64,000 nucleotides of DNA, from contig CAVQUO010000022.1 in NCBI GenBank assembly GCA_963716765.1, forward strand, positions 393,913 to 457,912, written 5' to 3'. Source of the stretch: an uncultured Bacteroidota bacterium (GTDB lineage: Bacteria > Bacteroidota > Bacteroidia > Bacteroidales > GCA-2748055). This document shows, piece after piece, positions 20,236 through 39,860 of the stretch. The translations under genes were made by a program, and so were the position numbers. Every line of letters starts with the position of its first letter. Position 1 is the first letter of the stretch. The notes beneath the pieces are model-generated. The model saw only the letters and a list, made by a program, of their open reading frames with translations, ran no database searches and was not told the origin of the DNA.

Positions 20236-20389
20236 TTTTTTATGTTTTATAAGTTTATCTAATCTATGATGCTGATATCTGTTAAAAGGTTTAAATTTAG
20301 ATCATAAATAATATTCTGTAACAGGTTAAACCAATAGGCGTCCAATCAGTCAAAGACAGCAGAATAATGATTCAATAACAGCTGACTCC

Positions 20390-21285
20390 TTGCAAATTGA
20401 GATTAAAAACCTGACCAAAACCTATCCGGGAGGATTTAAGGCACTGGACAATATCAACCTGACCATCACCAATGGGATGTTTGGTCTCCTGGGGCCCAAT
20501 GGAGCAGGGAAATCCACCCTGATGCGGATCCTGGTCACCCTGATGAAACCCAGCCAGGGACAGGTTCTGGTGGATGGAAAGGATATTAGCAAGCACCGCA
20601 AGGAGATCCGGAAAATGGTGGGCTACCTTCCACAGGATTTCAGGTTTTTCGCCAAACTTAAATCCTGGGAATTTCTGGATTATGCTGCCCGGCTGGCCGG
20701 AATGAACTCCAGAAAGGAACGCCTGGAGCGTGTGGATGAAATGCTGGAGAGTGTGGGGCTTTTTGAATTCAGAAACCGGATGGCCAACAAGCTTTCCGGT
20801 GGAATGAAGCGAAGACTGGGAATTGCACAGGCACTGATCGCCCACCCATCCATCATTATTGTGGATGAACCCACCACCGGACTGGATCCCGAAGAGCGGA
20901 TCCGGTTCAGGAACCTTTTGTCTGACCTGGGACGATCCGAAACCATCATCATTCTTTCCACCCACATCGTGGGGGATATCTCCAGTACCTGCAACCAGAT
21001 GGCCCTGCTGAACGAAGGTTCGCTCATCTACCAGGGTACACCCGATCACCTGGTGGAGCAGGCCAGAGGGCTTTGTCTGGAGAGCCGAAATCAGCCCAGG
21101 AGCAATATGAAATCCTGAAAAACGAGGTACCCATCATCTCCACCATCCCTTCGGGCGGAGGATGGGAAATGCAATTTGTGGGTGAAAAACCAGATGGGAT
21201 TGAGGCATCCCCGGTGGATCCCAATCTGGAACATGCCTATGTCCACTATATGGACAATAAACTTGAACACTGGAACCTGAAATGA
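20390..21285 (+). CDS. ABC transporter ATP-binding protein (ABC-2/DrrA-like), paralog 1; one frame change near 21070; TTG start in track
   Basis: Walker [10 protein letters not shown], signature LSGGMKRRL, Walker B IIIVDEPTTGLD, H-loop STHIV. Confidence 0.9.
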
Positions 21286-24200
21286 ACCTGATCAACATAT
21301 GGAATGTGGCCACCTATGAGAGCAAAACGCTTTTCAGAAGCTGGTTCTTCAGGATATTTGCCATCCTTGCCCTGTTGATTCTTTTTGGGACCAATATGGG
21401 CTTTTTCGGGGGACATTCCGATGCCAGGTGGACCTTCAGGGCCATTGCAGCCAACCTGCCCTATATCAATGTACTGTTTATCAATGTGGCACAGGCGGTC
21501 ATTGCAGTCTTCCTGGCATCCGATTTTCTGAAACGGGACAAAAAACTGGATACCACCGAGGTAATCTATGCCAGGCCCATCACCAATGGAGAGTATGTGG
21601 TGGGGAAAACCCTGGGCATCCTGGTGCTTTTTGTGGGACTGGTCCTGCTGGCTCTGGTCATGACCCTGGTTTTTAACCTGATACGCAAGGATATCCCGGT
21701 GGTGTGGGTGGCCTATCTTTATTACCCTCTGCTGATTACCATTCCCACCCTGGTTTTTATTCTGGGACTCTCCTTCTTTATGATGATCCTCTTCAAAAGC
21801 CAGGCAGTTACCTTCCTGGTGCTTGCTGGGCTACATCGGACTTACCCTCTTCTATTTTCAGGATAAGCTCTATGGCATGCTCGATTACATGGCATTTAAT
21901 CTGCCCATGGTCTAGTCCGATTTTATCGGTTTTGCCGATCCCAGGCTGATCCTGCTGCACAGGCTTGCCTACCTGCTGCTGGGCATCGGGTTTATCTTTG
22001 CCACCATACGCTTTCTGAACCGGCTGCCCCAGACCGGGCGATGGAACGGACTTAACCTGTTTGGTTTTATTGGTTTTATCGCTGGCCGGACTCTTCCTGG
22101 GATCACTGTATTATCAGTCACTACCAGGACCAGACAGCAATGACAGGGAGACATACCTGGAGCTGAATAATCTCTATGCAGGCTTACCCTGTGGCCGATG
22201 TGCTTTCCAATAAACTCAGTTGTGAGCCAGCATGGCAGCATCCCTGAATGTCATCTTCTGACCTGCAGATTCAGAATCAAAACACGGTTACAGCCTGGAT
22301 ACCCTGATCTTCTCACTGAATCCCGGGTTTTCCAGTGGACAGTATCACCAGCCGGAATGGAAAGAGTGGATTTTATCACGAAAGGAACAGCTTCTGATGG
22401 TTGTATCCTGCAGAGGCACTGAAGCCGGGAAGAAGAAGCAGTCTGAATATCTATTACTCAGGGGATTCCCGATGAGTCTGTGGCTTACCTGGATATCCCC
22501 CGGGAGCAGATGGATGCCATCAAACGAATCATGGTGGCTCCCATTGATAAAAAACCGGGGATCATTCATCCCGACTATATGTTGCTTACTCCGGAACTGA
22601 ACTGGTACCCGGTGGCAGGAGTGGGATTTAACCTGGAGACCTTTCAGCCACGGGAGCCAGATTTTGCCAGCTTCAGCCTGACTGTCAGAACCGATTCAGC
22701 CCTTACCGCCATTGCACCGGGAAGGTCAGACCGAGGATGAGGAGGGTATCCATTTTACTCCTGAACATGATCTGAATGCCTTTCCACTTGATCATTGCCC
22801 CCCTGGAGAAAAGAAGCATGGAGATCGATGGGGTGGAATACAATCTCTACCTGGATCCCGATCATGATTATTTCTCCAGACTATTTCACCAATATCCAGG
22901 ATACCATCAAGGCACTGATCACAGAAGCAAAGGATAATTATGAACTGGATGAACTGGATCTTTATTATTCCTTTAAACGGATCAACCTGGTGGAGGTGCC
23001 TATCCAGTATCATGCCTATGAAAGGCCATATAGTCAGACCGTAGAGAATATTCTTCCCGAAATGATCCTGATGCCTGAAAAAGGAGCAGGGATCAATACC
23101 CTGGATTTTGAACGTTATAAAAAGGCTGAAGAGAAACGCAGGATCGAGAACGAGGAAAACAGCAGAAGTCCACGGGAAATTGAGATCGACCAGTTCAAAC
23201 GTTTCCTGCAGAATACCTTCTTTCAGAAGTGGAATCCGGAGCAGGGGAGGAGGCTCCGGAGGCGGAGGCGGAGGAGAAGAACTGATTACTTTCCAGGGAG
23301 ATATCAACTACAACAAGAATCCCTACTGTGTGTTCCCCCTGTACTACAGCTATGTTACCGGAATCAGTTCCAGGGATTACCCGGTATTCAACTCCATGCT
23401 GGAAATTTACCTGAAGGAGGGTTTTGATGTCTCACCCAGGGAAGGATTTACAGGGGGGATTACCGATAAGGAACGGGCCAATCTCCTGCCTGAGCAGGAA
23501 GCAGTATGATTGAGCTCTTTGCCCGCTGGGATACCGAACTTACCTCTTCACTGATCAACCAGACCGGCAGTTTTATTATCTCTGCCTTGAAAAACAGGGT
23601 GGGGATGAGTGAATTTGATAATTTCTTCTATTACTACCTGGAGGATCATGCCTTTTCGGAAATTACCTTTGAACAGTTCTCCAGGGATTTTTACAAGGAG
23701 TTCGGGGTGGAGATTGCTCCCTACCTGGAGGTAATCAATGCCGGAGGGGAAATGCCCACCTTCCTTATATCTGAACCCGAATATCTGCAGACCCGGGATG
23801 ATATTGGCGATGTCTACCTGGTCAAATTCAGAATCAGCAATGTGGGAAATGCCACTGGACTGGTGGATTTCAATTTCCGGATCATGGGACAGGGCGGTTT
23901 TGGCGGCGGTGGTGGAATGAGCGAGGAAAAACGGCTCTATGAAGTGGATGCCAGGCGAAACCAGGGAGGTACAGGTGGTGCTTTATGACCGACCCATGAT
24001 GATGACTATAAATACGCTGATATCGGGAAATATACCTTCCAGCTTACAACAATTTCCTTCGCTCAGCCACGGAAGTTACCACAAGCCAACCTGGAGGAGT
24101 ATGAACGTGAGTTCAGAGCAGCCGGTCAGTTTTACATATTCAAAGATGAATATGTGGTGGACAATGAAGATGAAGGATTTTCCAGCTTTTCCATCTCCCG

Positions 24201-24751
24201 GGAGAGCAAATTAAAGCAATATATGGATTCCACGAAAGAAGAAGGACGAGGGACTGCTTTATCGAGAGCCTGAATGAATGGTGGACCCCTTCACGATGGA
24301 CCCCGGTGGCACATTCTGCCTATTACGGGGAGACAGTACGATCGGCCATGGCCATCCGAAGGGGAGATGGGACCAACTATGTGACCTGGAGCACCTTACT
24401 TCCCGAAAAAGGATTCTATGATGTTTATGTATATATCCCGGTGTCGGCCATGTATAAGCGTCCTTCCCGCAGGGAGCAGGGGAGTGACAGGGAGGACAGG
24501 GTGGCCAGGGCCAGGGCCAGGAGAGGCGGATTCGGACCAGAGTTTGCGGATAAGGGAACCGATTACCACTATACCATCTCCTCCAGTGAAGGAAGTGAGA
24601 GAGCTGGTTTTTGAATTGAATAATCCGGAAGATGGATGGAACCGTCTGGGTTCCTTTCATTTTCCGGCCGATTCGGTAACCATCCGACTGACCAATCAGA
24701 CCGATGGCCGGCGGGTTATTGCCGATGCAGTCAAATGGGTTAAAAAAGTAG
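21282..24751 (+). CDS. about 1150-aa ABC-2-type permease fused to a very large extracytoplasmic region (possibly M1-peptidase-like, no HExxH seen) with Gly-rich linkers and a golvesin-C-like terminal domain; 12 or more frame changes
   Basis: ATGA overlap with the ATPase. The N-terminal 250 aa is polytopic (ORF 21282..21866). It continues colinearly through 22480..22740, 22795..23427, 23108..23509, 23506..23988, 23939..24214 and 24306..24614, ending ...GWNRLGSFHFPADSVTIRLTNQTDGRRVIADAVKWVKK. Confidence 0.6.
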
Positions 24752-26309
24752 ATGAAGTTAAAATGTTAGAAGTTATGAGGATGACAACTGGTAAATATGA
24801 TGAAGGTAATGAGCGTATTGCTGGCATGGTGATGCTCTGGTGTCCGGATCTGTGGGAACAGCACTTCAGGGCACAGGCCCTGCTCACCATCGACCGATCC
24901 ATGGAAATTGCTGTGGAAAACAGTCCGGATATGAAACAGACCGAGCTCTCCCTGGTACGCAGCCAGGAGAGGCTCAATGCCCAGCGGGCCAGGCTGAAAT
25001 CACAGTTTTCCATTACCCTGGATCCTTTTGAATATGAAAAGACCAACCGCTTTGACCAGCAGACCAGTGAGTGGTATCTGAATGAATCGGCCTCATCAGG
25101 GGGAACCTTTGCCATCAACCAGCGGATCCTGCCCACCGATGGTGAACTGATGCTGGTGAACCGCTTTTCCTATGACTACAGCTTTACCGAATCGGCATTT
25201 GCATCGGATCCCCTTTCAAAAACCTTTAACAACCGCCTCTATCTGCAGTTTACCCAGCCCATCTTTACCTATAACAGAACCAGGATGGAGACCGAGAAGC
25301 TGGAGCTGGATTATGAAGCCTCCCTGATCAGTTACCTGCTGATGCAGCTTACCCTGGAGCGAAATGTGGCCCAGGAATTCTATGCCGTTTACTCCAACCA
25401 GATGAGCCTGGAGATTGCCCGGGAGGATCTGAAAAACAACGAGGAGAGTTACGAAATTATTAAAAATAAGGTGGAAGGGGGCCTGCTGGCCCTGGAAGAA
25501 CTTTACCAGGCTGAGGTAAACCTGGCCACCAGCCGTTCCGGAGTATTTAATGCCGAGCTGACCCTGGCCAACAGCATGGACCAGTTCAAGGTGCTTATCG
25601 GGCTTCCCCTGGATACCACCATTCTGATTGCAGCAGAAATTATGGCCGATACCGTACCTGTGAACCAGGAACTGGCCATTAGCCATGCCCTGGAGAACAG
25701 GATGGAACTAAGGGAAAGGGAGATTGATATGGAGAATGCCAATTTTGACCTGATCGTGGCCAAATCGACCAATGAATTTGCCGGTTCCAGTCACGGCTTC
25801 CTTCGGGGTACAGGGAAATAATGAACAATTTTCAGAACTGTTTGAAACACCCACCAACACCCCTGCCATTGGTCTTACATTTAATATTCCGCTGTTTGAC
25901 TGGGGGGAGCGGAAATCGGAGATCAAGGCAGCCGAAGCAAGTCTGCAAGAGCACCCAGATCAGCTATGAGGTGGAGCAAACCGATATCGTGATGAATATC
26001 CGTTCGGTGGTGCGGAGCCTGAAAAACCTGGAGAACCAGATTGAGATTCAGCGAAAAACCGTTGAAAATGCTGAACTGGCCTATGACATCAACCTGGAAC
26101 GGTATCGAAATGGCGATCTTACCAGCCTGGATCTGGGCATGTACCAGAACCAGCTTTCCGAATCGAAAATGTCGCTGACCAATGCCATTATCGATTATAA
26201 AATTGAGTTGCTTAACCTGAAAATCCAGACCCTGTATGATTTTGAAAAACAGATTCCCATCATTCCCGAAGAGCTCGATAAGCTACTGAAAATGAAAACA
26301 AATAGATAA
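24752..26309 (+). CDS. TolC-family outer membrane efflux protein; about 4 frame changes; start 24752 or 24797
   Basis: LLTIDRSMEIAVENSPDMKQTELSL..., two OEP repeats, ...LNLERYRNGDLTSLDLGMYQNQLSESKMSLTNAIIDYKIELLNL. Confidence 0.85.
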
Positions 26310-26319
26310 TCCAGAACCC

Positions 26320-27394
26320 ATGAAAACAATCCGAATTACCCTATGGTCCCTGATGATACCTGGCATTCTGCTGGTACTCATCCTGTAAACAGCCCGATAT
26401 GGAGGTAAGTACCACCATGGAAGTGCCTGTTGGAGTAATCGAAGTAACCACCTCTTCCATAGAAGAGTTTGTGAGCACCACCGGAACGGTTTACCCTCTA
26501 AAGGAGGTAACCCTTAGTCTCGGAGATTACCGGGGATATACCGGCTTCAGATCAATCCGGCCACCGGTAAACCATATGCCCTGGGTGATCGTGTAAAAGC
26601 CGGGGCAATCCTCATCAAACTGGAGGATGAGGAGTATGTGAACGATCTGAGGATCAAATCTAAAGAGGTGGATCTGGAAATCTCTAAACTGGAATATGAA
26701 AAACAGCAGGCGCTCTATGAGAAGGGAGGAGCCACCCTCAGGGATCTGAAAAATGCAGAGATTACCCTGATCAATACCGAGTATGACATGGAGAGCAGCC
26801 GGATCAACCTGGCCAAGATGTCTCTGAAGGCACCCTTTTCCGGGGTGATTTCCGAACTTCCCTATTTCACCGAGGGAACACGGGTAGCCTGCAAATACTG
26901 AGATGGTAACGGTCATCGATTATGATAAGCTTTACATGGAGGCCAATCTTCCGGAAAAATACTTCAGGAATATCGAGCAGGGGATATCAAGGTTTATGTG
27001 ACCAGTTATACCAGTACGGCCGATACGCTGCTGGGCACCATCACCCAGATTTCGCCCTCCATCGATCCCGAGGCACGAACCTTCTAAGTGTTTCGTGGAG
27101 GTGGAGAACAGGGATCAGGAATCCTGCTTCCGGGCATGTTTGTGAAAGCCGACCTGGTGGTCAATAGTGCTGAAGAGGTTATTGTGATCCCCAAGGATAT
27201 TATCATGAGCCGGAACCGGAACCAGATTGTTTACGTGGTGGAGCAGGGGGTCGCCAGTGAACGGATCATCACCACCGGGCTTGCAGAATGCAAACAGTGT
27301 GGAGGTAAAGATGGGACTACTAAAAGGGGAGAGTATTGTCAATTCAGGATTTGAAACCCTGCGGGACCAATCCAGGGTCAGGATACTCAGATAG
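26320..27394 (+). CDS. efflux RND periplasmic adaptor (MFP/HlyD family); about 6 frame changes
   Basis: TM anchor MKTIRITLWSLMIPGILLVL, coiled-coil hairpin (ORF 26638..26901), SLKAPFSGVISE lipoyl-like motif, C-terminal barrel fragments. Confidence 0.8.
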
Positions 27395-27412
27395 AACAGC
27401 AAGCAAAGAGCC

Positions 27413-30400
27413 ATGTTAAAAGCCATCACCAGATTTTCGGTCAGTTACCCGGTTTCGGTGAGCATGATCATCATTGCCACCCTCTTGCTGGGATTTATCT
27501 CCTTCGACAAGCTGGGTATCGACCTCTTTCCCAACCTTCACAGTCCGAGGCTCTATATCGAACTGGTGGCCGGTGAACGTCCGCCGGAGGAGATGGAGGA
27601 GAAAGTTTGTGGATGGGGTCGAATCACTGGCCATCAGGCAGAGTGGAGTGGTCAATGTTTCTTCCACTTCCAGGGTGGGAGTGGCGCTGGTGGAAGTGGA
27701 ATACACCTGGGAAAAGGATATGAATGAGGCCTTTCTGGACCTGTCCAAGGCCTTTCCACCTTTAACCAGGACGATGAGCTGGAGGAGATCAATATCACCC
27801 AGTACGATCCCAATTCAAGTCCTGTGATGCTGGTGGCCTTTCAGCATGCGGAAACCAACGATCTGAACGAATTGAGGAAGACTGCTGAGAATTATGTGAG
27901 AAATGAACTGATCCGCCTGGAAGGGATAGCCGATGTGGAAGTTGATGGAGCAGAAGAGCTTGAAGTACTGGTAGAAACAAATGATTACCTGCTTAATTCC
28001 TATAACCTGGATATCTCCACGCTTACCAGCAAGATTGAAAGCTACAACCAGAATATTTCAGGTGGATCCATCGTGGAAATGGGGAAGCGCTATATTGTGC
28101 GGGGAATCAGTGAACTGGAGCAGGTACGAGGACCTGGAGGAGATCATCGTAAAGATGGATGAGCCACGTGAAGAATCGGACAGGGAAACGGGTTCCTGTA
28201 CTGCTGAAGGATGTGGCCACGGTCAGCTGCAGCCTGAAGGAACAGGAAAATGCGGTCATGCTGAATGGTGAGGCCTGTGTGGGACTGAGCATCTACAAGG
28301 AGATGCGCTACAATACGGTCAAAGCGGTGGAAGATCTGAAAGAGGCCACTGGAGGATATGCAGAAGGCACTTCCCGGATTCACCTTTACCATTGTGGAGG
28401 ACCAGGGGAACTACATCTCATCGGCCATCGGTGAGGTGAGCGACAGCCTGATCGGCGGAATCCTGCTGGCAGTTTTTGTGCTTTTTCTCTTTCTGCGGAG
28501 GATTGGCCCCACCGCCATTGTCAGTGTCGCCATCCCGGTCTCCATCATTGCCACCTTTGTACTGATGTATTTTGCGGGTCTTACCCTGAATATCATGACC
28601 CTGGGTGGACTGGCCCTGGGGGCCGGAATGCTGGTGGACAATGCCATTGTGGTACTGGAGAATATTTTCCGGCATCATGAACAGGGAGACAATGCCGGTG
28701 AAGCAGCGGTCAACGGAACCTCCCAGGTGGGAGGCGCCATTATCGCCTCGACCCTGACCACCATTGTGGTCTTTATCCCCATCGTATACCTGCGGGGTGC
28801 ATCCGGTGAACTATTTAAGGAACAGGCTTTTACGGTGGCCTTTTCACTGCTGGCCTCGCTGGTTGTGGCCATCCTGATTATTCCCATGCTCTATTCCAGG
28901 ATTTACCGGAAAAAGTCACCTTTTACCGGAAACAGGCGCGAATCGGTACAGTTTAACTGGTTATGGCCGCTTTCTGGATAAAATACTGAATTACCGGGTC
29001 TGGGTGCTTCTGGCTGCACTGCTTCTGATGGTGAGGTGGCTGGTTTATGCTGCAGACAGACGGGCAGTGAATTTATGCCCAGGGCAGAAAGCCGGGAATT
29101 CTATGTGGACCTGCAGATGCCCGAGGGAACCCAGCTGGAACGAACCACCGGGGCTGTGTCACAGCCTGGAAGAATATCATCCGGGAAATCGCCGGGGAGG
29201 ACCTGGAACTGATCTACAGCGAAATCGGTCCCACTTCGGGCATCTCGTCCGGAGGGGGATAAACTCTTTGATGACCAGAACATGGCCACCATCAAGGTGA
29301 AAATGAAAGCAGACAGCAGACTTTCTACCAATAGTCTGATTGCTGTACTCACCGAGCATTTCAAGGATAATCCCAATTTCACGGCACTCTTCCGGCAGGA
29401 GGAGAGTGCACTTTCGACCATCCTGGGAACCGATGCATGCTCCCCTGGTGGTGGAGCTGATCGGGGAGGAGATGGAGGAACTGGAAGAACTCACCGAGAT
29501 TGGTCATGGCCAGACTGGAAGAAATCCCTGGCATCCGCAATATCACCTCATCCATTGAGGGAGGAGCCCCTGAAGTGGAGATTGTGATTGACCGCTACCG
29601 GGCCGGACTGATGAATGTGGATGTAAACACGCTTGATCAGCACGGGTAAGTGAAAAACTGCAGGGCTCAGATGCCGGACAGATGAACCTGAAGGGTGATC
29701 TGACCGATATTACGGTAAAACTGAACGACATCACCCTGCAGGAGCTGGAGATGCTTACCGTGGAGGTGAACAATACGGAGATCCTGCTCAGAGAGGTGGC
29801 CGATATCAGGATGGGAAACTCACCCCGGGAGATTCTGCATAACAATCAGAACCGGATTGTGGAAATCACGGCCGATCTGGATAAGGATCTTCCACTGGAC
29901 CAGGTGGCAACAGCCATTGATCAAAAGCTGGATGGAGTGGAGTTTCCCCCCAAATACAGTTATAAGATTACCGGTGAGGAGGCCATGAGAAAGGAGTCCA
30001 TGGGAAGCCTGGGTTTTGCCTTGCTTCTCTCCCTGATCCTGGTTTACATGGTCATGGCTGCCCAGTTTGAAAGCCTGGTGCATCCCTTTACCATCCTGCT
30101 GCCCGTACCCCTGGCAGTGGTGGGGGCCGTAGCTGTCTTCTATCTTCCAGGGCAAGGCTCTTGAATATCATGGCCCTTATCGGGATCATCCTGCTGGTGG
30201 GGATTGCGGTAAACGACTCCATCATCCTGGTGGATGCCATCAACCAGTTCCGGAAGGAGGGGATGAAACTGAGGGAGGCCATTGTTTCTGGCCGGACAGC
30301 GGCGGATCAGGCCCATTATCATGACCTCCCTGACCACCATCCTGGCCCTTTTCCCGCTTACACTGGGATTCGGGGAGAGTGCATCTCTGCGTTCGCCCAT

Positions 30401-30504
30401 GGCCTGGGCGGTTATCGGGGGACTGATCACTTCCACCATGCTGACCCTGGTGGTGATTCCCTGTATCTACATGGTATTTGGACAACTGGGAAAAATACAG
30501 ATAA
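27413..30504 (+). CDS. efflux RND permease (AcrB/CzcA superfamily) 1; 10 or more frame changes
   Basis: [27 protein letters not shown]..., [63 protein letters not shown]. Confidence 0.9.
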
Positions 30505-30515
30505 AGAGGAGGTCC

Positions 30516-33500
30516 ATGCTGGTGAATAAACACTTCCTCATACAGCGAAAGGTCCTGATTTCCATGCTGTTTATTGCAGCAACCCTGCTGGGCTATATCT
30601 CCTGGAAACAGTTGAAGATGGAGATATTTCCCCAATGCGGAGTTGCCCATGCTTTACATCCAGGTAAACTCCAGGATCGAAGTCACCCCGGAGTACATGG
30701 AGCAGGAGGCCATTATCCCGGTGGAGAGTATGATTGCCGGACTGGAGAATATCGAAGAGATCGCAGTCCAATGCAGGACAGGCGCATGGGATCCATCCTG
30801 ATCTCCTACGAGGAACGAACCGACCTGAAATATGCCTATCTGAAACTGGATGAACAGGTAGCATCCATCCGGGGCGATCTGCCGGATGAATTTCAGCTCT
30901 CAGGTGGTTAAAATCGACCTGGATGATGCGAATAACACCCTGATGAGCTTGCAGGCACAGGGGATCGGGAGGAGTGGACCGGGTACGGAATTATGTGGAT
31001 CAGCATATTGTCAATGAGCTGGAAAATATTGAAGGTGTAGCTGCTGTGAATGTTTTTGGCGGAAGGCAGAAATCGGTGGATATCATCCTGGACAGGGCTG
31101 CCTGTGAAGCCTACAATATTGCTCCCTCCAGGGTAAGGAACATCCTTGCCTCCAACATGAACCTGCGCCAGTATGGTGGTGTGGTCAAGGAGCAGGGACA
31201 GCGCTTCTTTGTCTACCTGAATGCCGAATATGACAACATCTCCCAGATCGAGGAACTGATCATCGGAAGAGGAAACAACCCGGTGAGGCTGAAGGATATT
31301 GCTGAGGTTTACTACGGTGAGAAGGAGGAAGAGACCATCAGCCGGGTCAATGGGAAGGATGCGGTCTCCCTGGAAGTGATCAATGATGCCCAGGCCAATA
31401 TCATTGAACTCTCCCATAAGGTGGAGGATCAGCTTGAGATGCTGAACCAGGGAGGGTAGCCCCTTCGATATTGAGGTGATTGTCCAGGAAAACAGTGCCG
31501 AAGATGATGGAGGATAATATCAACCAGATCATCCGGCTGGCACTGACCGGTGCCCTGCTGGCCATCTTTGTATTGTGGGTCTTCCTTCGCAATGTGAGAC
31601 TGGTGCTGCTGGTGGCCCTGGCCATGCCCATCTCCATCTTCACCGCCTTTAATTTCTTTTTTGCCTTTGATATATCCATTAACAGCCTGACTCTGATAGG
31701 GATTGCGCTGGCAGTGGGGATGTTGCTGGATACCTCTGTGGTGGTGCTTGAAAATATATACCGGCTCAGAAGCCTGGGAGTAAAGCCGGCAGAATCGGTG
31801 ATCCAGGGAACAGGGGAGGTCTGGCGTTCCATTGTAGCAGCCACAGGAACCACCATCGCTGTATTTATCCCCTTTATATTTTCTTCCGATTTCCTGGTTA
31901 AGCTGCTGGCCAGGCATATCGGGGTATCCATTATCTCCACCCTGGCCGTTTCCCTGTTGGTCTCTCTGCTGCTGATCCCCATGGCGGTTCATGTGATCCT
32001 GACCCGACAGAAAGAGGGAAACAAGGAGGTATACCAGGAAGTATCCCTGGATAACCGGCTGGTACGCATCTACCTGTCCCTGCTTGAAAACAGCCCTCAG
32101 AAATCCTGCTCCCACCATTATGGGGGTTCTGATCCTTTTCTTTGGGACCATCCTTACCACCCTTTCTGTTTCGGTAAATAAACTTAATGAACTGGAAACC
32201 AATCAGATTACCCTCTATGTGACCATGCCCACCGGTACAACCCTGGAGGCCACCGATGCACTGGTGGCAGGCATGGAAGAGGCCCTGATGAAGATTGAGG
32301 AGCATAAGGAGGTAATTTCCAGGATTGAAGAGGAGGAAGCCACGGTGACCATTCTGCTGCAGGATGATTACCGGAAAATCAATAATCGCTCCTTCGGACA
32401 GATCCAGTCAGAAGCCTATGAGATGGTGAAGGATCTGCCGGCATCGGATATCAGTCTGACTGCCTCTTCGGGATCCGGAAATATGCGGGGAGGAAGTGGA
32501 GGTGGAGACACAGGCAGGGGATGCAGGTTTCGAGCAATTGCTGGGAATCGGAGAGGATGAAGAATATATTGTACTGAAGGGACAGGATTTTAATCTGCTG
32601 GTGGAGGTGGGAGAGGATCTGCAATCCTACCTGGATGAACTGGATAACATCAGCTCGGCCAGGCTTTCGGTACGGGAAAACCAGCCCGAGGTCCACCTGG
32701 ACTTTAACTCCCTGACTCATGAACCGGTACGACATCAGCCGGAACCGAGGTAATGGGCGAACTGAGCAGCTTTTACCAGCGAAATCAGTTCGGGGGTCAA
32801 TTTCAGCCAGGATAATGAGGAGTATGAGATCATCATCAAGTACAATGATGCCGCTGGAGGAGGAGGATGAGGATAAAAGAATGGAGGATCTGCGAGGCCC
32901 TGCATATTCCCGATAGTGAGGATGAGAACCTTTTCGAACTCCAGGAGATCTCGGAAATCTATTATGCCACAGGTTTGCGGGATATTTCCCGGGTAAACCA
33001 GGAAAAGCAGGTGGAACTTCGGTACCAGTATAACGAGGATGTTTATGACTCCAATGACCTGCTGGACTATGCCAGAAGTGAAATTGAGGATCTGATTCAG
33101 AATGCCAATATCCCCTCCGGAGTGGCCGTGGAACTGGTACAGGAGGATTCCGGACTGGATGAGTTCAAATACATGTTCCTGATCGCCATGATGCTGGTAT
33201 ACATGATCCTGGCAGCCATATTTGAGTCCTTTGTCACCCCCTTTGTGCTGCTCTTCTCCATCCCCCTGGCTGCCATCGGTTCCTTTTTTCTGCTGACTGT
33301 TACCGGCGAATCGCTTTTCAATGCCAATACCATCATGGGATTCCTGATCCTGCTGGGGGTGGTGGTCAACAACGGGATCATCCTGATCGATTTTATCAAT
33401 GTGCTGCGAAAGAAGAGGATACCGGAAAACCAGGGCCATCCTTGTGGCCGGACTTTCCAGGGTTCGCCCCATCCTGATTACTGCAGTTACCACCTGTGCA

Positions 33501-33631
33501 GCCATGATTCCCCTGGCCCTGGGAAATGCAGAATATGTGGAAGCCATCGGACCACCCTTTGCCATCACGGTGATCGGTGGACTGAGCCTGAGTACCTTGC
33601 TGACCCTGGTTTATATTCCCATGCTTTATAA
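30516..33631 (+). CDS. efflux RND permease 2; 10 or more frame changes
   Basis: [26 protein letters not shown]..., [63 protein letters not shown]. Confidence 0.85.
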
Positions 33632-33635
33632 CGGA

Positions 33636-35260
33636 ATGGAACAGGCACTGGAGTGGATCAGGAGCCTGAAACTGGTGGTGAAAATCTTCTCTGCTGCTTC
33701 TGGAAATTGCCGGAATGCTCCTGGTGATATCTTTACCTGCAGACCTTTATCTGGAAAATGGCAGCCGGACTCCTGGTGATTGTGGGAATACCGGTGGCCT
33801 GGTGGTTTATCTCCAGCAGCCTGCGAAAAGCCTCCGAACGCATCATTGATGAAGAAAGCCCCATCCATATCCAGGTATCCAACCTGGTAAAGATTTATGG
33901 CAGAGAATCCAAAATGGTCAGGGAATTTAAAGCAGGGGGAAGAATGGCCAGAATGGCCAGGACAGCCTGGACAGGGCTCTGAAACCCAAGCTGGAATCAC
34001 TGATCTGGCAACTTCCCCTGCTGGGATTTCCTGGTCTATTTTTCCTGGTTCTACCTGGTCAGTGGATTCTGGCAGCTGGTCTCTTCGGCCGTGGCATACT
34101 ACTACCTGCTGGCCATCATGGGGGACTTCAGCAGGCTCACCGGCAAAACGGCACTTAGACTGTCTGAACAAGCTGTTCAGGTATGGAGCTCCCTCTGCTG
34201 GTGCTTGTTCTTTTCCAGATACAGGTGGGATAACCTGCCCTTAGCCTGCTGGCGGGTGTTCTCTGGTACCTGGTCATTGCCATGGGAGATGTTTCCGTCA
34301 TGGTGAAACAGAAGGATTTTGAACTGAAAAAGATCCGACCACTTATACGCTGGTTTTTCTGGTTTGTTTCTGTGCTTCCCGGACTGGGACAGGGATCCGG
34401 AACAATTTAAGGCCCTCAAAGGAGTCTCCCTGGAGATCGGTACCGGTATGTTTGGATTGCTGGGACCCAATGGTGCCGGGAAATCAACCATGATCCGAAT
34501 CATCTGCGGCATCCTGGAGCAGAGCTATGGAAAGATCTGGATCAACGGGATCGATACCCAGGAGAAGCGAGAGGAGCTGCAGGGACTTATTGGTTACCTG
34601 CCCCAGGAATTTGGCATGTATGAAAACATGTCGGCCTATGCCTACCTGGATTACCAGGCCATTCTGAAAGGAATTACGGACCAGCATGACCAGGGCAAGA
34701 CGAATCAGGGAGGTACTGGATTCGGTGCATATGTGGGACCAGCGACAGAAAAAGATCGGGGCCTATTCGGGAGGAATGAAGCAGCGGATCGGTATTGCCC
34801 AGGTGCTGCTGCACCTGCCCAGAATCCTGGTGGTGGATGAACCCACTGCCGGACTGGATCCCACGGGAACGGATCCGTTTCAGGAACCTGCTGGTGGAAC
34901 TGAGTGCCACCCGGGTGGTGATCTTTTCCACCCATATCATTGAGGATATTTCCAGCTTCCTGCAATACCATGGCAGTGATCAACAGGGGAGAGGTGCTCT
35001 TTAACGGAACCCCGGCGGAAATGACCGAAATTGCCAGAGGGCAGGGTCTGGAAATCCACTCTTCCTGCTGCAGCAATTTGAAGAAGCAAACCAGGAGATT
35101 GCTGGTGGTGCACCATATGAGAGATGGTGAAAACATCAGGTTCAGATGCATCTCTGCAGAGAAACCCTTTGAAGATGCCGTTGAGGAATCACCACTTCTG
35201 GAGGATGCCTACCTCTGGCTGCTACGTTCAGATAAAGAGAAGACAGGGAAAAGTCAATAA
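33636..35260 (+). CDS. membrane-anchored ABC ATP-binding protein, paralog 2: about 2 N-terminal TM helices plus an ~165-aa hydrophobic insertion between strand beta-1 and the Walker A region; about 8 frame changes
   Basis: [51 protein letters not shown]...[15 protein letters not shown], then hydrophobic fragments (33911-34405), then [62 protein letters not shown]. Confidence 0.7.
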
Positions 35261-35264
35261 GCAT

Positions 35265-35950
35265 ATGTCACGAAACAGATCATTCATACAAAATACATTC
35301 AGCCTGGCCAGGTACAATATGAGGATCATCTTCGGAGGGAAAGTTTATCTATTTCATCCTGGCAGCCTTTATTTTCTTCCTGGTATTTGGAACCATTATG
35401 GCACTGGACAGCGGTGATATGGACATGGAAGATATTTATGGCCTGCTGGCCTTCCCGGCCATCCTGCTGGTCTTTTTTCCCTCGGTATTCGGAATCCAGA
35501 GCGATGCCGATCAGCGGACCCTGGAGATTATTTTTGGCATCCCCGATTACCGCTACAAGGTCTGGCTGGTTCGCTACCTCATGATCCTGCTCCTGGTATT
35601 TTTGCTGCTTTTCCCCTTTGCCGGACTGGCCTACTATGCCCTGATCAGCTTTCCCGGTTCTGAAGATGATTCTCCACCTGATGGTGCTGGTTCTTTTTGT
35701 TTCTGCCCTTGGATTTTCTCTATCCACCATGGTGAGGAACGGCAATGCCACTGCGGTGATCATGGTGATTATCGGACTTGCCCTTCTGATCCTTGCCGAT
35801 GAACTGGATGAATCCAAATGGAACATCTTCCTCAATCCATTTAATATTCCCCGGAATATTAATGAGATTGTCTGGCAGGAAACCATCCGGCAGAACCGGA
35901 TCATCATGGGGATTGGAAGCGTGGTTCTGATCCTGTCTGGGTCTGTCTGA
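35265..35950 (+). CDS. ABC-2-type permease (about 228 aa); 2 frame changes
   Basis: Starts 4 nt after the ATPase stop. Six hydrophobic segments across 35265..35417, 35398..35802 and 35666..35950. Confidence 0.65.
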
Positions 35951-36039
35951 ATCTTCAGCGAAGGGAGAAGTTTCTGCGTTAGGGAAAGCAATTGTCATCC
36001 CGTAAATTTTTTCTATCTTCTGCATCAAAACCTGAAACG

Positions 36040-37555
36040 ATGCATTTCCAAAGACTATTTCTTTTATTAACGGCTTTCATGCTTATGAACTCTTCAGTCC
36101 TTATCGGCCAGCTCAGCCAACCATCCATTGGTTCTTTCCAGGCATTCACAGATATAGGTTCCCCGGGCATTCCTGGCAGTGTTTCCTACAATGAACCCCA
36201 GCAGGAATACCTGATGAGGGGTTCGGGAGAGAATATCTGGTTTGGGAAGGACTGCCTTCTCCTTCCTCTGGAAAAAAATGAATGGTGACTACATCATCCA
36301 GGCCAGTGTGGAATTTCTGCTGGAAGGAAACCACCTCCACAGAAAGGCCGGACTGATGATCCGGGAGGGACTCGCATCCGATGCAGTACATATCTCCTGT
36401 GTGGTCCATGGCGACGGATTAACTGCCCTGCAATTCCGAAAAAAGCAGGGAGCCGATATGGAAGAGCTGAAGTTTCAGACTTGAAGGCCCGGATATACTC
36501 CAGCTGGAAAAGAAGGGATCTACCTTCACCATGTCGGTGGCCCATTTCGGGGAAATCTTATGCATCTCAATCCATGGATATGGATCTAGAAGCAGAGCAA
36601 TTTGCCGGGCTCTTCATCTGCTCCCATGATGATAACTTTTCCGAAACAGCCCGCTTTTCCAATGTGCGCATCCATGGAACTGCGCCTGATGATCTGGTGC
36701 AGTATGAAACTTACCTTGGGAAGCATGCTGGAGATCATGGATGTGGAAAATGGCAGCAGGAAGGTACTGGGCGGAGCAACCGGTTCATGGCAGGCTCCAA
36801 ACTGGAGTCCGGATGGAAACTCACTCATTTACAATGCCGATGGATTGCTCTATAAGTTTTGATATTGAATCCAGTGAATCGACCCTCATCCCTTCCGGAC
36901 TGGCCGTTCGTAACAACAACGACCATGTAATTTCCTTTGACGGAACCATGATGGCCATTTCTCACCATGCAGAAGAAGACCAGGGCCGGTCGGTGGTATA
37001 CACCCTTCCGCTTGAGGGGGGAGATACCAACACGCATCACACCTCTTGAGCCCGTCCTACCTTCATGGCTGGTCGGCCGATGATAAATACCTGGTTTATA
37101 CCGCCGAGCGAAACGGAGCTTACAACATCTTCAGGATTCCATCCGGGGGAGGCGATGAAGTACAGCTTACAGACACACCCACCCTGGATGACGGTCCCGA
37201 GTACAGTCCGGACGGGAAATACATCTATTTCAACTCAGCCCGCACAGGGACCATGCAAATCTGGAGAATGGATCCCGATGGCGGAAATCAGACCCAGCTG
37301 ACCGATGATCCATACAATAACTGGTTCCCCCATATTTCACCCGATGGAAAGTGGATCGTATTCATCTCCTTTCCCCCTGAAGTCCCCGCTGACTCACACC
37401 CCTTCTACGAAAGGGTGTACCTGAGGCTGATGTCGGTGGAGCAGATGGAGCCCAAAGTTGTGGCCTATTTGTATGGCGGGCAGGGTACCATCAACGTTCC
37501 CAGCTGGTCGCCCGACAGTAAACGTATTGCCTTTGTGAGTAATGGGCTTTATTAA
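36040..37555 (+). CDS. secreted protein with lectin/glucanase-like N-domain and TolB-like beta-propeller; about 6 frame changes
   Basis: Signal peptide [16 protein letters not shown]. Propeller repeats [46 protein letters not shown]. Confidence 0.7.
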
Positions 37556-37593
37556 TTCGGGACTCTGGTTTCCAGACCCTAAAACCTCAAACC

Positions 37594-38682
37594 ATGAAAA
37601 AAAAGCTGTTTTTACCAATACTTATCTTATCCTTGTTCCCTGGCCTGCTTAAAGTTTATGCCGCAGATCCGCCACCGGTAATTGGCTTATGCATTGCTGC
37701 CCCCCGGAGCAGATGCAGTTGATCAGTTTATTAATTTCATGGAAGAAGGAACTGGGCCAGGTGGCATTAATACCCTGGTTCTGCGTGTGGATTACAATTT
37801 TGCCTATAACTCTCATCCCGAACTCAGAGACGAGAATCCTTTGAGCAGGAAGCAGGTAAAAAGCCTGTTGGAATGCGCCGACAAACAGGGAATCCGGATC
37901 ATTCCCCAGATCAACCTGCTGGGTCACCAGTCCTGGCACAGCAAGCTGGAGAAATTGCTGGAGGTTTATCCCGAATTTGATGAGACTCCCTCGGTAAAGC
38001 TTCCTGAATACTATGAATGGCCAAACGAAGACGGACTATACTGCAAAAGCTACTGTCCGCTTCACCCCGAAGTTCACGAGGTGGTCTTTTCACTGGTGAG
38101 ATGAGATCATGGAGGTATTTGAGGCCGACGCTTTCCATGCGGGCATGGATGAGGTCTTCTACATTGGCATGGATGAATGCCCCCGATGTAATGGAAAGGA
38201 TAAGGCCAAACTCTTTGCCGATGAGGTAAACCTGATTTCCGGCCACCTGCAAAGCAGAGGGCAGGGAACTCTGGATCTGGGGCGACAGGCTGATTGATGG
38301 CAAAACCACCGGAATCGGAATGTGGGAGGCCAGTGAGAATGATACCCATGGAGCCATCGATATGATTGACAAGAATGTGGTGATCTGTGACTGGCATTAC
38401 GAAAGGGCAGATCCCACGGCTGCACTATTTGCATTGAAGGGTTTCCGGGTGATTACCTGCCCATGGAGGTCGCCCTGATATTACCCGCACCCAGCTTCAA
38501 ATGACCGACACCTTTCGTGCAAATACCCGGGAAAGGCAAAGGGATCGCTATTTGGCTTCATGCAAACCGTCTGGAGTCCTGCGGAAAGCTTCCTGGAAGA
38601 ATACTATTCAGCGGATGAAGATATCTCAAACGGCGGACAGGTGGGCAGCCTGAAGGCAATTATGGGACTATTATTCAAATAG
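37594..38682 (+). CDS. glycoside hydrolase family 20-like (TIM-barrel hexosaminidase-like) protein; many frame changes
   Basis: Signal peptide MKKKLFLPILILSLF; GINTLVLRVDYNF...GIRIIPQINLLGHQSW...FHAGMDEVFYIG. Confidence 0.55.
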
Positions 38683-38691
38683 CAACTGAGT

Positions 38692-39860
38692 ATGACCCGG
38701 CTCAAATCCATTGACATCCTCAGGGCTCTGACCATGCTGTTGATGATCTTTGTAAACGACCTGTGGTCCCTGAACGATATTCCCGAATGGCTCGGACACA
38801 AGGCGGCCGATGTGGATGGAATGGGTCTGGCCGATGTGGTCTTTCCTGCCTTCCTTTTCATAGTGGGCTTATCCATTCCCTTTGCCATAAATGCCCGTTT
38901 AAAAAAAGGAGATTCCCGTAAACTGATTCTCAGACACATCATTGAGCGTACCCTGGCCCTTTTGATCATGGGGGTGTTTATGGTAAACCTTGAGAATATT
39001 GATAAGATCGGCCATGTTAATCAGTAAACCACTCTGGCAAATCCTGATGACCCTGGCCTTTTTCCTGATCTGGAATGTATATCGGGGCAAGGCTTCTGGG
39101 TAGGATTTCACCCCTGTTTATGAAAGCAATGGGGTGGGTCATGCTTGTTTTCCTTGCAATCATATACAAAGCGCCCGACCAGGGCGCCGGTACCTGGATG
39201 CATTTTCACTGGTGGGGCATCCTTGGACTCATTGGCTGGGGCTACCTGCTCAGCGCCCTTGTCTACCTCTTCATCGGGAATAAACCCGGCTGGCTATTTC
39301 TGATCCTCACCATGCTCTATGTTCTGAACGTCAACGAATTCGTAACACCATTCGGATTTTCATTAAAAATTGTGATCAGTGCTTCCTCCTACGCACTTGT
39401 AATGGGTGGCCTTCTCTCAAGCGCGGTTTTGATCCAACTTCAGGAGAAGAATAGAAGCACCAGACTGATTCCGCTTCTTCTTGCATTTGCAGCCCTCTTA
39501 CTGATCTTTGGTTTCCTGACCCGACCTGCCTGGGGAATCTCCAAGATTATGGGCACCCCTTCCTGGACAGCCATCTGTTCGGCCCTTACAGCGCTTTCCT
39601 TTGCCCTCCTGTACTTTCTGAGCGATAAACTGGGCATTTACCGCTGGGCCGATCTTCATTAAAGCGGCCGGGACAAGCACACTTACCTGTTATCTGCTTC
39701 CCTACATCGTATATGCACTATGGAACCATTTCCGGGATCAGTGTAGCTGATTTCCTGAACACGGGATTAGTGGGGCTTCTGAAATCAGCAACTTTTCGCC
39801 ATCCTGATCATACAGCTTACAGGCTTGTTGGGAAGGTGGAACATCAAATTAAAAATCTAA
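38692..39860 (+). CDS. DUF5009 / HGSNAT-like (DUF1624) transmembrane acetyltransferase family protein, copy 1; about 4 frame changes
   Basis: RLKSIDILRALTMLLMIFVNDLW...GMGLADVVFPAFLFIVGLSIPFA, then multiple TM segments, ending ...IKLKI. Confidence 0.65.

What the first reader, a model, noticed from the sequence alone, without database searches (positions are those of the whole stretch)
33636..35260. ABC ATPase whose nucleotide-binding domain appears interrupted by a polytopic membrane insertion
In paralog 1 the N-terminus reads IEIKNLTKTYPGGFKALDNINL...[15 protein letters not shown], with 3 residues between KTY and FKAL. In paralog 2 the same elements are [15 protein letters not shown] (about 33865-33910) and [28 protein letters not shown] (from 34406). 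About 495 nt (165 aa) separate them. The best reading of that stretch is strongly hydrophobic: [76 protein letters not shown]. Ahead of strand beta-1 there are about 75 further residues with two TM-like helices ([33 protein letters not shown]). A soluble NBD tethered by an N-terminal anchor and also carrying a multi-TM insertion in its first beta-hairpin is an architecture I do not recognise from described ABC families. It sits 4 nt downstream of an RND permease, so the membrane parts could dock the ATPase onto the RND complex.
Basis: partly seen in the sequence, partly recalled or inferred. Interest (0 to 1): 0.7.

Follow-up and report, generated by a model that had tools for sequence, protein, structure and literature searches.

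The report
RND efflux pump fused to ABC ATPase
The "interrupted ATPase" is real, but it is the tail of one giant protein: a proton-driven RND efflux pump fused in frame to an ATP-driven ABC engine whose first beta-hairpin carries four membrane helices, a conserved hybrid for which I found no published description.

Summary
After frame correction, strand beta-1 with its A-loop ([10 protein letters not shown], 33860-33910) is separated from beta-2 (FKALKGV, from 34406) by about 160 residues containing four predicted TM helices. Two more TM helices lie upstream.

The gene boundary is wrong. The ATPase is not a separate gene 4 nt after an RND gene. In about 60 cleanly assembled relatives, including four whose records are not labelled MAG, the same region is one ORF of 1,560-1,617 aa: RND permease, 2 TM, beta-1, 4 TM, then the rest of the NBD. 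The window copy (30516-35260) needs 31 frame corrections and has no in-frame stop afterwards.

An exhaustive profile search found the TM module only in proteins of this type.

The gene sits in a conserved operon: ABC ATPase, giant ABC-2 permease, outer-membrane factor, adaptor, unfused RND paralogue, the fusion, and a small ABC-2 permease.

All NBD catalytic motifs are intact. Both RND paralogues lack the equivalents of AcrB D408 and K940.

Most likely this is an ABC-2 exporter covalently docked on a heteromeric tripartite RND pump. Whether ATP feeds substrate to the RND or drives the RND itself is open. I found no published description.

The parts
30516..35260 (+). Whole RND2::ABC fusion gene (about 1,575 codons after removal of 31 spurious frame shifts).
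   Evidence: Collinear tblastn and frameshift-aware alignment to clean 1,568-1,603-aa ORFs, with no in-frame stops after correction. ATG at 30516. Stop TAA at 35258-35260.
30516..33650 (+). RND (AcrB-type) permease domain, 12 TM, ending with TM12 ...[16 protein letters not shown].
   Evidence: In the homologue L004, Pfam ACR_tran covers residues 4-1032 against model positions 3-1018 of 1021. PDB hits are MdtB, CmeB, MexB and AcrB. Window TM4 reads GMLLDTSVV and TM10 reads VVVNNGIIL.
33688..33817 (+). Extra TM hairpin (TM13 [16 protein letters not shown]14 [20 protein letters not shown]) linking RND TM12 to the NBD.
   Evidence: AF2 helices 26-46 and 50-79 of P0002, pLDDT 85-93. W52, P65, F70, S74 and L75 are invariant.
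33860..33910 (+). NBD strand beta-1 plus the A-loop aromatic residue ([17 protein letters not shown]).
   Evidence: With the insertion spliced out, the sequence aligns contiguously and at high posterior with ABCA1 NBD1 (IQNLVKVYRDG) and NBD2. AF2 strand 91-100. L96, V97, K98 and Y100 are invariant in 100 sequences.
33911..34396 (+). Insertion in the beta-1/beta-2 hairpin. It consists of a basic amphipathic stalk, four TM helices (about 34000-34062, 34067-34129, 34164-34222, 34237-34287) and a return amphipathic helix (about 34330-34390).
   Evidence: AF2 helices 105-257 with TM pLDDT 86-91. Invariant residues Q137, P139, F143, F147, Y151, W157, P197, F204, W221, P259 and G262. No Pfam or NCBIfam model covers it. 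The profile finds it only in RND fusions.
34397..35260 (+). Remainder of the ABC-2/ABCA-type NBD (beta-2, Walker A at 34463-34489, Q-loop, YSGGM signature from 34764, Walker B/DEPT, H-switch) plus a C-terminal regulatory-type domain.
   Evidence: Pfam ABC_tran. All motifs are invariant. Foldseek hits TM_1403 (4yer), LptB, NosF and ABCA1/4/7. phmmer hits ABCA1/3/4/7. Best NCBIfam matches are GldA and DrrA, below cut-off.
35265..35982 (+). Small (about 237 aa, 6-helix) ABC-2-family permease, starting 4 nt after the fusion's stop codon.
   Evidence: tblastn. Present directly downstream in 62 of 63 loci. 23 of 71 members hit Pfam ABC2_membrane_3, best E = 8e-8, and others hit ABC2_membrane, _2 or _4.
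27413..30530 (+). Unfused RND paralogue (RND1). Its stop overlaps the start of the fusion gene.
   Evidence: Present directly upstream in 55 of 60 loci with a full-length fusion ORF. Identity to RND2 is 27%, against at least 48% within RND1 orthologues.
26381..27391 (+). Periplasmic adaptor (MFP, HlyD/CusB-type).
24817..26290 (+). Outer-membrane factor (OEP, TolC-like).
21282..24750 (+). Giant ABC-2-type permease with a C-terminal Golvesin_C domain.
   Evidence: A Golvesin_C ORF lies upstream of the OEP gene in 49 of 50 eligible loci.
20330..21282 (+). Canonical ABC ATPase ('paralog 1'), 49% identical to the fused NBD.
   Evidence: The same gene sits at the head of the operon in the distant member L084.

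Best explanation
What it is (shown). Window 33636-35260 is the C-terminal third of a single polypeptide of about 1,575 residues. The order is: a complete AcrB-type RND permease (12 TM); a TM hairpin; strand beta-1 and the A-loop tyrosine of an ABC-2/ABCA-type NBD; two more TM hairpins (4 TM) with cytoplasmic stalk helices; then beta-2 through the end of a catalytically intact NBD. That makes 18 TM in total.

Its operon is conserved: ABC ATPase, giant ABC-2 permease with Golvesin_C, outer-membrane factor, adaptor, unfused RND paralogue, the fusion, and a small ABC-2 permease.

How it most likely works (inferred). The fused NBD and the downstream ABC-2 permease form an ATP-driven inner-membrane exporter. 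It may also include the free NBD and the giant permease as the other half. The three extra TM hairpins hold this exporter against the TM domain of the RND2 protomer.

RND1 and RND2 would form an MdtB2C-like heterotrimer. That arrangement resolves the clash between a trimeric RND and a dimeric NBD: two RND2 subunits give two tethered NBDs, or one RND2 gives one tethered NBD that pairs with the free NBD.

The ABC part would move an amphiphilic substrate from the cytoplasm or inner leaflet to the outer leaflet or periplasm. There the RND, adaptor and outer-membrane factor would expel it across the outer membrane. Because the insertion starts right after the A-loop tyrosine, which stacks on adenine, movements of the TM hairpins could be coupled to nucleotide binding.
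For: One ORF:
- Homologues with PF00873 and PF00005 in the same chain cover 100% of the query.
- The sequence reads continuously from RND TM12 into the NBD.
- 60 loci carry an open frame of at least 1,500 aa, 59 of them 1,560-1,617 aa. Four of the records are not labelled MAG: Saccharicrinis, Plebeiibacterium, Carboxylicivirga and Bacteroidales bacterium 6E.
- The window is collinear with these ORFs, with no stops after correction.

Beta-1 identity.

TM count and topology:
- An even number of TM helices lies on each side of beta-1, the periplasmic turns are short, and the cytoplasmic loops are rich in K and R.

Catalytic competence: Walker A, Q-loop, signature, Walker B Glu, D-loop and H-switch are invariant in 100 sequences.

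The module is specific to the fusion:
- A profile of linker, beta-1 and insertion was run against 1.84 billion representatives and gave 129 hits.
- Nearly all long hits (about 1,550-1,590 aa) carry the module at roughly residues 1045-1305. The rest are shorter sequences that look like fragments.
- A 526-aa hit shares its 90% cluster with a 1,567-aa member.

Dedicated ABC-2 permease downstream.

RND1 upstream and ancient divergence of the two paralogues.

Full operon in distant members.

MdtB2C precedent for a heterotrimer with divided roles: PMC4338810.
Against: - No coordinates or complex prediction were available. Packing of the extra TM helices against the RND, NBD pairing and stoichiometry are all inference.
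- The downstream permease was assigned to ABC-2 only by weak-to-moderate Pfam hits. Its AF2 model was poor (pLDDT 63), so its fold is unconfirmed.
- Nothing identifies the substrate.
- A simple tether would not need an insertion inside the NBD core, so plain docking may under-explain the conserved beta-1/beta-2 insertion.
- Both RND paralogues lack the AcrB D408 and K940 equivalents. This leaves room for a different energy-coupling scheme.
Confidence: 0.5

Rival explanations
1. ATP-driven or ATP-gated RND pump. NBD dimerisation and hydrolysis act on the RND2 TM domain through the TM hairpins, one of which is wired directly to the A-loop. This would replace or gate proton-motive-force coupling. 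The small ABC-2 protein would be an accessory.
For: - The equivalents of AcrB D408 and K940, two of the essential relay residues, are replaced (N/T/C and N) in all 60 fused RND2 sequences. RND2 has no ionisable residue at positions 940/941 of TM10.
- The insertion lies immediately after the adenine-stacking Tyr.
- The TM module is strongly conserved and occurs only in RND fusions.
- The NBD is unusually conserved.
Against: - The unfused RND1 shows the same D408N and K940N changes, so this may simply be the family's normal relay.
- D407, R971 and T978 are retained in RND2 (60 of 60); in RND1 D407 and R971 are retained in all 54 and T978 in 50 of 54.
- A conventional ABC-2 permease partner is strictly conserved next to the NBD. 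That argues the ATPase drives an ordinary ABC TMD.
- I know of no precedent for an NBD driving an RND fold.
Confidence: 0.25
2. Fusion only for co-assembly or stoichiometric expression. The ABC-2 transporter and the RND pump work independently, for example on different steps of one envelope pathway, and the extra TM helices are passive linkers.
For: - Both halves look complete and self-sufficient. The RND has an adaptor and an outer-membrane factor. The NBD has an ABC-2 permease.
- Gene fusions of pathway partners are common (established knowledge).
Against: - A passive linker would not need four TM helices inserted inside the NBD's first hairpin.
- A passive linker would not be expected to keep about 20 invariant residues across Bacteroidota, Calditrichota and KSB1.
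- No unfused version of the module was found.
Confidence: 0.15
3. Two genes, as in the reader's own refutation scenario: a small polytopic membrane protein followed by an ordinary ABC ATPase, merged here by sequencing errors.
For: The window itself has many frame breaks and stops in every frame.
Against: - About 60 independent clean assemblies carry one uninterrupted ORF through beta-1, the insertion and beta-2.
- Beta-1 lies upstream of the insertion, so an ATPase starting after the insertion would lack its first strand and A-loop.
Confidence: 0.01
4. A decaying pseudogene or an assembly chimera specific to this contig.
For: 31 frame disruptions in 4.7 kb.
Against: - The neighbouring genes checked are split across frames in the same way: the giant permease, OEP, MFP, RND1 and the small permease.
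- 29 of the 31 corrections are single extra bases, many next to short homopolymers, which is a read-error signature.
- There are no in-frame stops after correction, and identity to relatives is 80-90%.
- Synteny matches L002 and L004.
Confidence: 0.02

Closest known systems
MdtABC (MdtB2C) and MuxABC heteromeric RND tripartite pumps
   Same: Two diverged RND paralogues lie in tandem behind one adaptor gene, with an outer-membrane factor. MdtB is the best PDB sequence match to RND2. The MdtB2C heterotrimer, with roles divided between energy and substrate, is an established precedent (PMC4338810).
   Different: Here one paralogue carries 6 extra TM helices and a complete ABC NBD. The AcrB D408 and K940 equivalents are absent from both paralogues. 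RND1 and RND2 are only 27% identical, against about 50% for MdtB and MdtC. The heterotrimer is not demonstrated here.
ABC-2 / type V ABC exporters with adaptor proteins (E. coli YbhGFSR, RbbA-YhhJ-YhiI; the bacterial DrrA/GldA/NatA NBD family; eukaryotic ABCA)
   Same: The NBD subfamily matches: best PDB sequence hits are ABCA1/3/4/7 and TM_1403, and the best HMMs are GldA and DrrA. There is a C-terminal regulatory-type domain. A separate 6-helix ABC-2 permease gene lies immediately downstream. An adaptor is encoded in the same operon.
   Different: In those systems, as far as I know, the NBD is soluble or fused to its own TMD. None is fused to an RND permease, and none has TM helices inserted between beta-1 and beta-2 (from my knowledge, not tested here).
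MacAB-TolC (type VII ABC tripartite pump)
   Same: An ATP-hydrolysing component belongs to a three-part envelope-spanning efflux system.
   Different: MacB is an NBD followed by 4 TM and a large periplasmic domain, and it replaces the RND. Here the RND is present and fused, the extra TM hairpins have almost no periplasmic loops, and no FtsX or MacB_PCD domain was detected.
CFTR NBD1 'regulatory insertion' (residues 404-435)
   Same: [quoted passage not shown] This shows the hairpin tolerates insertions and that such insertions can be regulatory.
   Different: The CFTR insertion is about 30 residues, soluble, mobile and phosphorylated. This one is about 160 residues with four TM helices, and it is conserved in sequence.
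AcrZ and other small TM partners of RND pumps
   Same: Extra TM helices presumed to pack on the RND TM domain and modulate it.
   Different: AcrZ is a separate single-helix protein. Here there are six helices, covalently attached and wired into an ATPase. This resemblance comes from memory and was not tested.

Membership tests
ABC ATPase (NBD) superfamily | Walker A, Q-loop, LSGGQ-type signature, Walker B with catalytic Glu, D-loop and H-switch. | tested here: met
   [28 protein letters not shown] and STH are invariant in 100 homologues and present in the window. Pfam ABC_tran E = 1e-27.
ABC ATPase (NBD) superfamily | A contiguous beta-1/beta-2 hairpin with the A-loop aromatic residue about 25 residues before Walker A. 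| tested here: not met
   Beta-1 and the A-loop Tyr are present and homologous. They are separated from beta-2 by about 160 residues with 4 TM helices. This is the novel departure.
ABC-2 / type V exporter systems (DrrA/GldA/ABCA-like) | NBD of the ABC-2/ABCA subfamily with a C-terminal regulatory-type domain. | tested here: met
   Best sequence hits are ABCA1/3/4/7, 4yer and 1vpl. Best fold hits are 4yer, LptB, NosF and ABCA. NCBIfam GldA and DrrA score best among ABC models, though below their cut-offs.
ABC-2 / type V exporter systems (DrrA/GldA/ABCA-like) | A partner 6-TM ABC-2 family permease. | tested here: inconclusive
   A conserved protein of 230-250 aa lies directly downstream in 62 of 63 loci. 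23 of 71 members hit PF12698, best E = 8e-8, but most score below gathering thresholds. The AF2 model is too poor to confirm the fold.
RND permease, HAE-1 type (AcrB/MexB/MdtB) | 12 TM with two large periplasmic loops (full ACR_tran domain), plus adaptor and outer-membrane-factor genes. | tested here: met
   ACR_tran E = 1e-162 over the full model. PDB hits run end to end. OEP and HlyD-type adaptor genes lie upstream.
RND permease, HAE-1 type (AcrB/MexB/MdtB) | Proton-relay residues D407, D408 (TM4), K940 (TM10), R971 and T978 (TM11). | tested here: not met
   D407, R971 and T978 are kept. D408 is N, T or C and K940 is N in 60 of 60 fused and 54 of 54 unfused paralogues. RND1 often has D941 (39 of 54); RND2 never does. 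All NCBIfam RND models score far below their cut-offs.
MdtBC-type heteromeric RND | Two tandem RND paralogues sharing one adaptor. | tested here: met
   RND1 lies directly upstream in 55 of 60 loci with a full-length fusion ORF, and there is a single MFP gene.
MdtBC-type heteromeric RND | A physical 2:1 heterotrimer. | not testable with these tools
   This needs co-purification, a structure, or multimer prediction.
MacB / FtsX type VII ABC | NBD followed by 4 TM with a large periplasmic domain (FtsX, MacB_PCD). | tested here: not met
   No FtsX or MacB_PCD Pfam hit. The periplasmic turns of the extra hairpins are 2-3 residues long.

The most novel reading that the evidence does not exclude
This would be the first RND pump whose transport cycle is driven or gated by ATP. 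The NBD is wired into the RND TM domain through TM hairpins that emerge right next to the adenine-stacking A-loop, in a family where the canonical AcrB D408/K940 proton-relay pair has been lost. If so, the two great energy-coupling modes of bacterial efflux would be combined in one polypeptide.
Probability: 0.2. Interest if true: 0.95.

Novelty: new variant of a known kind. Interest (0 to 1): 0.8.

Why it matters
RND pumps (proton-driven, trimeric) and ABC transporters (ATP-driven, dimeric) are treated as separate classes of efflux machine. Their known cooperation is indirect. Here a protein family conserved across at least three phyla covalently joins the two. It also threads membrane helices through the ATPase's first hairpin.

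This matters for three reasons:
- It gives a natural system for testing how cytoplasm-to-periplasm and periplasm-to-outside transport steps are coupled.
- It shows how a 3-fold and a 2-fold machine can be reconciled.
- It raises the question of whether an RND fold can be powered or gated by ATP.

It also shows that the NBD beta-1/beta-2 hairpin, the same site as CFTR's regulatory insertion, can host a whole membrane domain.

Cultured organisms appear to carry the gene (Saccharicrinis, Carboxylicivirga, Plebeiibacterium), so experiments are feasible.

Tried and rejected
- **AF2 of the small downstream permease.** The only alignment allowed was shallow (at least 78% identity). It gave pLDDT 63, and Foldseek on that model returned nothing significant; the top hit was CcmB at E = 1.2. 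I did not use it as evidence.
- **hhalign of the TM module (A2) against the small permease (A4).** No similarity, so the six extra helices are not a split ABC-2 TMD.
- **hhalign of the small permease against the N-terminal TMD of the giant permease.** E = 0.13, with only the D/E-x-x-T-x-E...P motif in register. This is inconclusive.
- **Foldseek of the ABC-module model.** It aligned only the NBD to NBD-sized targets. It therefore gives no independent fold assignment for the TM module and cannot show beta-1 pairing directly. The beta-1 assignment rests on DSSP strand 91-100 and the spliced-sequence alignment.
- **Literature.** Four searches aimed at an RND-ABC fusion and a scan of the 2021 Chem Rev review of tripartite pumps found no description. 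No NCBIfam or Pfam model is specific to the fusion, the insertion or the small permease. Database names are generic, such as "efflux RND transporter permease subunit" and "AcrB/ABC-type ... ATPase subunit".
- **Rejected readings.** Separate genes, a pseudogene, or an intein or mobile insertion. I rejected these because the region is in frame, conserved and has no mobile-element features.
Full report
**1. State of the sequence**

The window is full of frame breaks. Around the finding no frame stays open for more than about 250 codons, and the RND genes upstream are fragmented in the same way.

I aligned the window to a cleanly assembled homologue (L006) with a frameshift-aware dynamic program. 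The region 33300-35260 needs 17 frame corrections, and 30564-33367 needs 14 more. Of these 31 corrections, 29 are single extra bases, many next to short homopolymers. After correction no in-frame stop remains. This is read error of the long-read kind, not gene decay. The neighbouring genes checked (giant permease, OEP, MFP, RND1 and the small permease) are split across frames in the same way.

**2.

- Paralog 1 has the normal hairpin: [41 protein letters not shown].
- In the finding, [17 protein letters not shown] lies at 33860-33910, and [28 protein letters not shown] starts at 34406.
- The corrected intervening sequence is ...[78 protein letters not shown]...[34 protein letters not shown]...[24 protein letters not shown].
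- A rough reconstruction hit thousands of database proteins. The best hits (E as low as 1e-279, 77-80% identity) cover 100% of it as single ORFs.
- Hydropathy gives two TM helices before beta-1 and four inside the insertion.
- An AlphaFold2 model of the clean homologue P0002 (100-sequence alignment, mean pLDDT 83, pTM 0.61) shows helices 26-46 and 50-79, a strand at 91-100, helices from 105 to 257 (the four TM helices at pLDDT 86-91), and then a normal NBD.

**3. Is IYGRE really beta-1?**

Yes. I spliced the insertion out and searched the PDB sequences. The alignment runs straight across the splice at high posterior probability. "[12 protein letters not shown]..." pairs with ABCA1 NBD1 "IQNLVKVYRDG" and with NBD2 "LEIKELTKIYRRKRK", and continues into Walker A.

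L96, V97, K98 and Y100 are invariant in 100 homologues. Y100 occupies the position of the A-loop aromatic residue that stacks on adenine (position shown; role from established knowledge of NBDs). In the AF2 model residues 91-100 are a DSSP strand. All other strands of the model belong to the NBD, so this strand must be hydrogen-bonded to the NBD sheet (that last step is inference).

**4. The gene boundary is wrong: it is an RND-ABC fusion**

Many hits carry Pfam ACR_tran and ABC_tran in one chain. Their sequences read without interruption from RND TM12 (...[16 protein letters not shown]...) into the extra helices and the NBD.

I scanned one genome per species with a pattern taken from the insertion (WQLPLLGF). 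It found 186 relatives. Of the 80 loci retrieved, 60 had enough upstream DNA for an open frame of at least 1,500 aa through the match, and in 59 of these the frame is 1,560-1,617 aa. The 60 include four records not labelled MAG:
- Saccharicrinis sp. FJH54 (1,568 aa)
- Plebeiibacterium sediminum (1,579 aa)
- Carboxylicivirga sp. A043 (1,572 aa)
- Bacteroidales bacterium 6E (1,602 aa)

The window is collinear with these ORFs from 30516 to 35260. The supposed RND stop at 33631 belongs to a wrong frame.

**5. Distribution and exclusivity**

Carriers are mostly Bacteroidales and Marinilabiliales-type Bacteroidota. There are also a Calditrichaceae MAG and a KSB1 MAG.

I ran a profile of linker, beta-1 and insertion through HMMER against 1.84 billion representative proteins. 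Only 129 proteins matched. Nearly all long ones (about 1,550-1,590 aa) carry the module at roughly residues 1045-1305. The remainder are shorter sequences that look like fragments. One 526-aa hit shares its 90% cluster with a 1,567-aa member. So the module was seen only as part of this fusion. No Pfam or NCBIfam model covers it.

**6. Conserved partners**

- Directly upstream lies an unfused RND paralogue, found in 55 of 60 loci with a full-length fusion ORF. It is 27% identical to the fused one, against at least 44% within each orthologue set, so the duplication is old and both copies are kept.
- Directly downstream, 4 nt away in the window, is a membrane protein of 230-250 aa in 62 of 63 loci. 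It belongs to the ABC-2 permease family by Pfam: 23 of 71 members hit PF12698, best E = 8e-8. A few JGI entries name it as a NosY-type permease.
- Further upstream are an adaptor, an outer-membrane factor, a giant ABC-2 permease ending in a Golvesin_C domain (49 of 50 eligible loci) and a canonical ABC ATPase, which is paralog 1. This order holds in the window, in the syntenic L002/L004, in two non-MAG genome records, and in the distant member L084, where all seven genes are visible.

**7. Features bearing on mechanism**

- *NBD.* All catalytic motifs are invariant. The NBD is of the ABC-2/ABCA type with a C-terminal regulatory-type domain.
- *Topology.* The topology is self-consistent. The RND C-terminus is cytoplasmic, and an even number of TM helices lies on each side of beta-1. 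The periplasmic turns are 2-3 residues long, and the cytoplasmic loops are rich in K and R. The six extra helices are therefore three tight hairpins with no periplasmic domain.
- *RND.* Aligned to E. coli AcrB, both paralogues keep D407 and R971, and T978 is kept in all 60 RND2 and in 50 of 54 RND1. D408 is replaced by N, T or C, and K940 by N, in every sequence. RND1 often has Asp at position 941; RND2 never does. The canonical HAE-1 relay is therefore incomplete. Because the unfused paralogue shares the change, it is not by itself evidence that ATP replaces protons.

**8. Best explanation**

The architecture is shown: one 18-TM polypeptide joining a complete RND permease to a complete, catalytically intact NBD whose first hairpin is split by four TM helices, inside a conserved seven-gene tripartite-efflux operon.

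The mechanism is inferred. The NBD with the downstream ABC-2 permease, and possibly the free NBD and giant permease as the other half, forms an ATP-driven inner-membrane exporter. The extra hairpins hold it against RND2.

RND1 and RND2 would form an MdtB2C-like heterotrimer (precedent: PMC4338810). That removes the 3-fold versus 2-fold clash in one of two ways: two RND2 subunits give two tethered NBDs, or one RND2 gives one tethered NBD that pairs with the free NBD.

The ABC part would deliver substrate to the periplasmic or outer-leaflet entry of the RND, which would expel it through the adaptor and the outer-membrane factor. My confidences are:
- about 0.97 for the architecture;
- about 0.5 for the docked-exporter (relay) mechanism;
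- about 0.25 for direct ATP drive or gating of the RND;
- about 0.15 for fusion that only aids co-assembly.

**9. Comparison with known systems**

The closest known systems are:
- MdtABC/MuxABC, which have tandem RND paralogues;
- ABC-2 exporters that work with adaptors (YbhGFSR type), and the ABCA-like NBD family;
- MacAB-TolC, an ATP-driven tripartite pump with a different fold; no FtsX or MacB_PCD domain is present here;

None of these combines an RND with an NBD, and none places TM helices inside an NBD.

Four literature searches aimed at an RND-ABC fusion and a scan of the main review of tripartite pumps found no description. Database names are generic. The searchable library is incomplete, so an earlier mention elsewhere cannot be excluded.

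**10. Verdict**

The feature is a conserved hybrid of two known transporter classes for which I found no published description. I rate it a new variant of known kinds and of high interest.

Noticed in passing
window 30516-35260 (and the neighbouring genes 21282-35982): 29 of the 31 frame corrections in the fusion gene are single extra bases, many beside short homopolymers. The neighbouring genes checked are split across frames in the same way. This is the error profile of an unpolished long-read assembly, so any ORF-level reading of this window needs homologue-guided correction.
   Followed up: partly
window 30282-30911, junction at about 30516-30530: The window shows an apparent read-through from RND1 into RND2. 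In clean relatives the two genes overlap by a few bases in different frames (e.g. TAATG in L045). The read-through is probably caused by a nearby indel, such as one extra A in the GGGAAAAAT run.
   Followed up: yes
window 20330-24750: A second ABC-2 system heads the same operon. It consists of a canonical NBD (49% identical to the fused NBD) and a permease of about 1,150 aa with an N-terminal ABC-2 TMD, a large extracytoplasmic region and a C-terminal Golvesin_C domain. It is conserved with the fusion in 49 of 50 loci and in L084. It may supply the other half of a heterodimeric ABC transporter.
   Followed up: partly
window about 31700 (TM4) and about 33370 (TM10) of RND2; RND1 TM10 at about 30200; loci L004-L082: Both RND paralogues lack the equivalents of AcrB D408 (N, T or C) and K940 (N). 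D407 and R971 are kept in both and T978 in nearly all. RND1 usually has Asp at position 941; RND2 never does. Whether this is peculiar to the operon or typical of a wider Bacteroidota RND clade was not determined.
   Followed up: partly
window 12507-12599 (-): ARAGORN reports a 93-nt 'tRNA-???' with a four-base anticodon (aaaa). It is probably a tRNA damaged by an indel in the anticodon loop.
   Followed up: no
window 36600-39100: Downstream genes are a PD40/Tricorn-like beta-propeller, a GH20 hexosaminidase and a DUF5009/HGSNAT-like acyltransferase. They are syntenic with L002 and partly with L004, but not with distant members. They are therefore neighbours of this lineage only, not part of the conserved module.
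   Followed up: partly
L084 17934-24384 (-): The distant carrier L084 has a second, ordinary TetR-regulated RND/MFP/OEP operon a few kb downstream of the hybrid operon.
   Followed up: no
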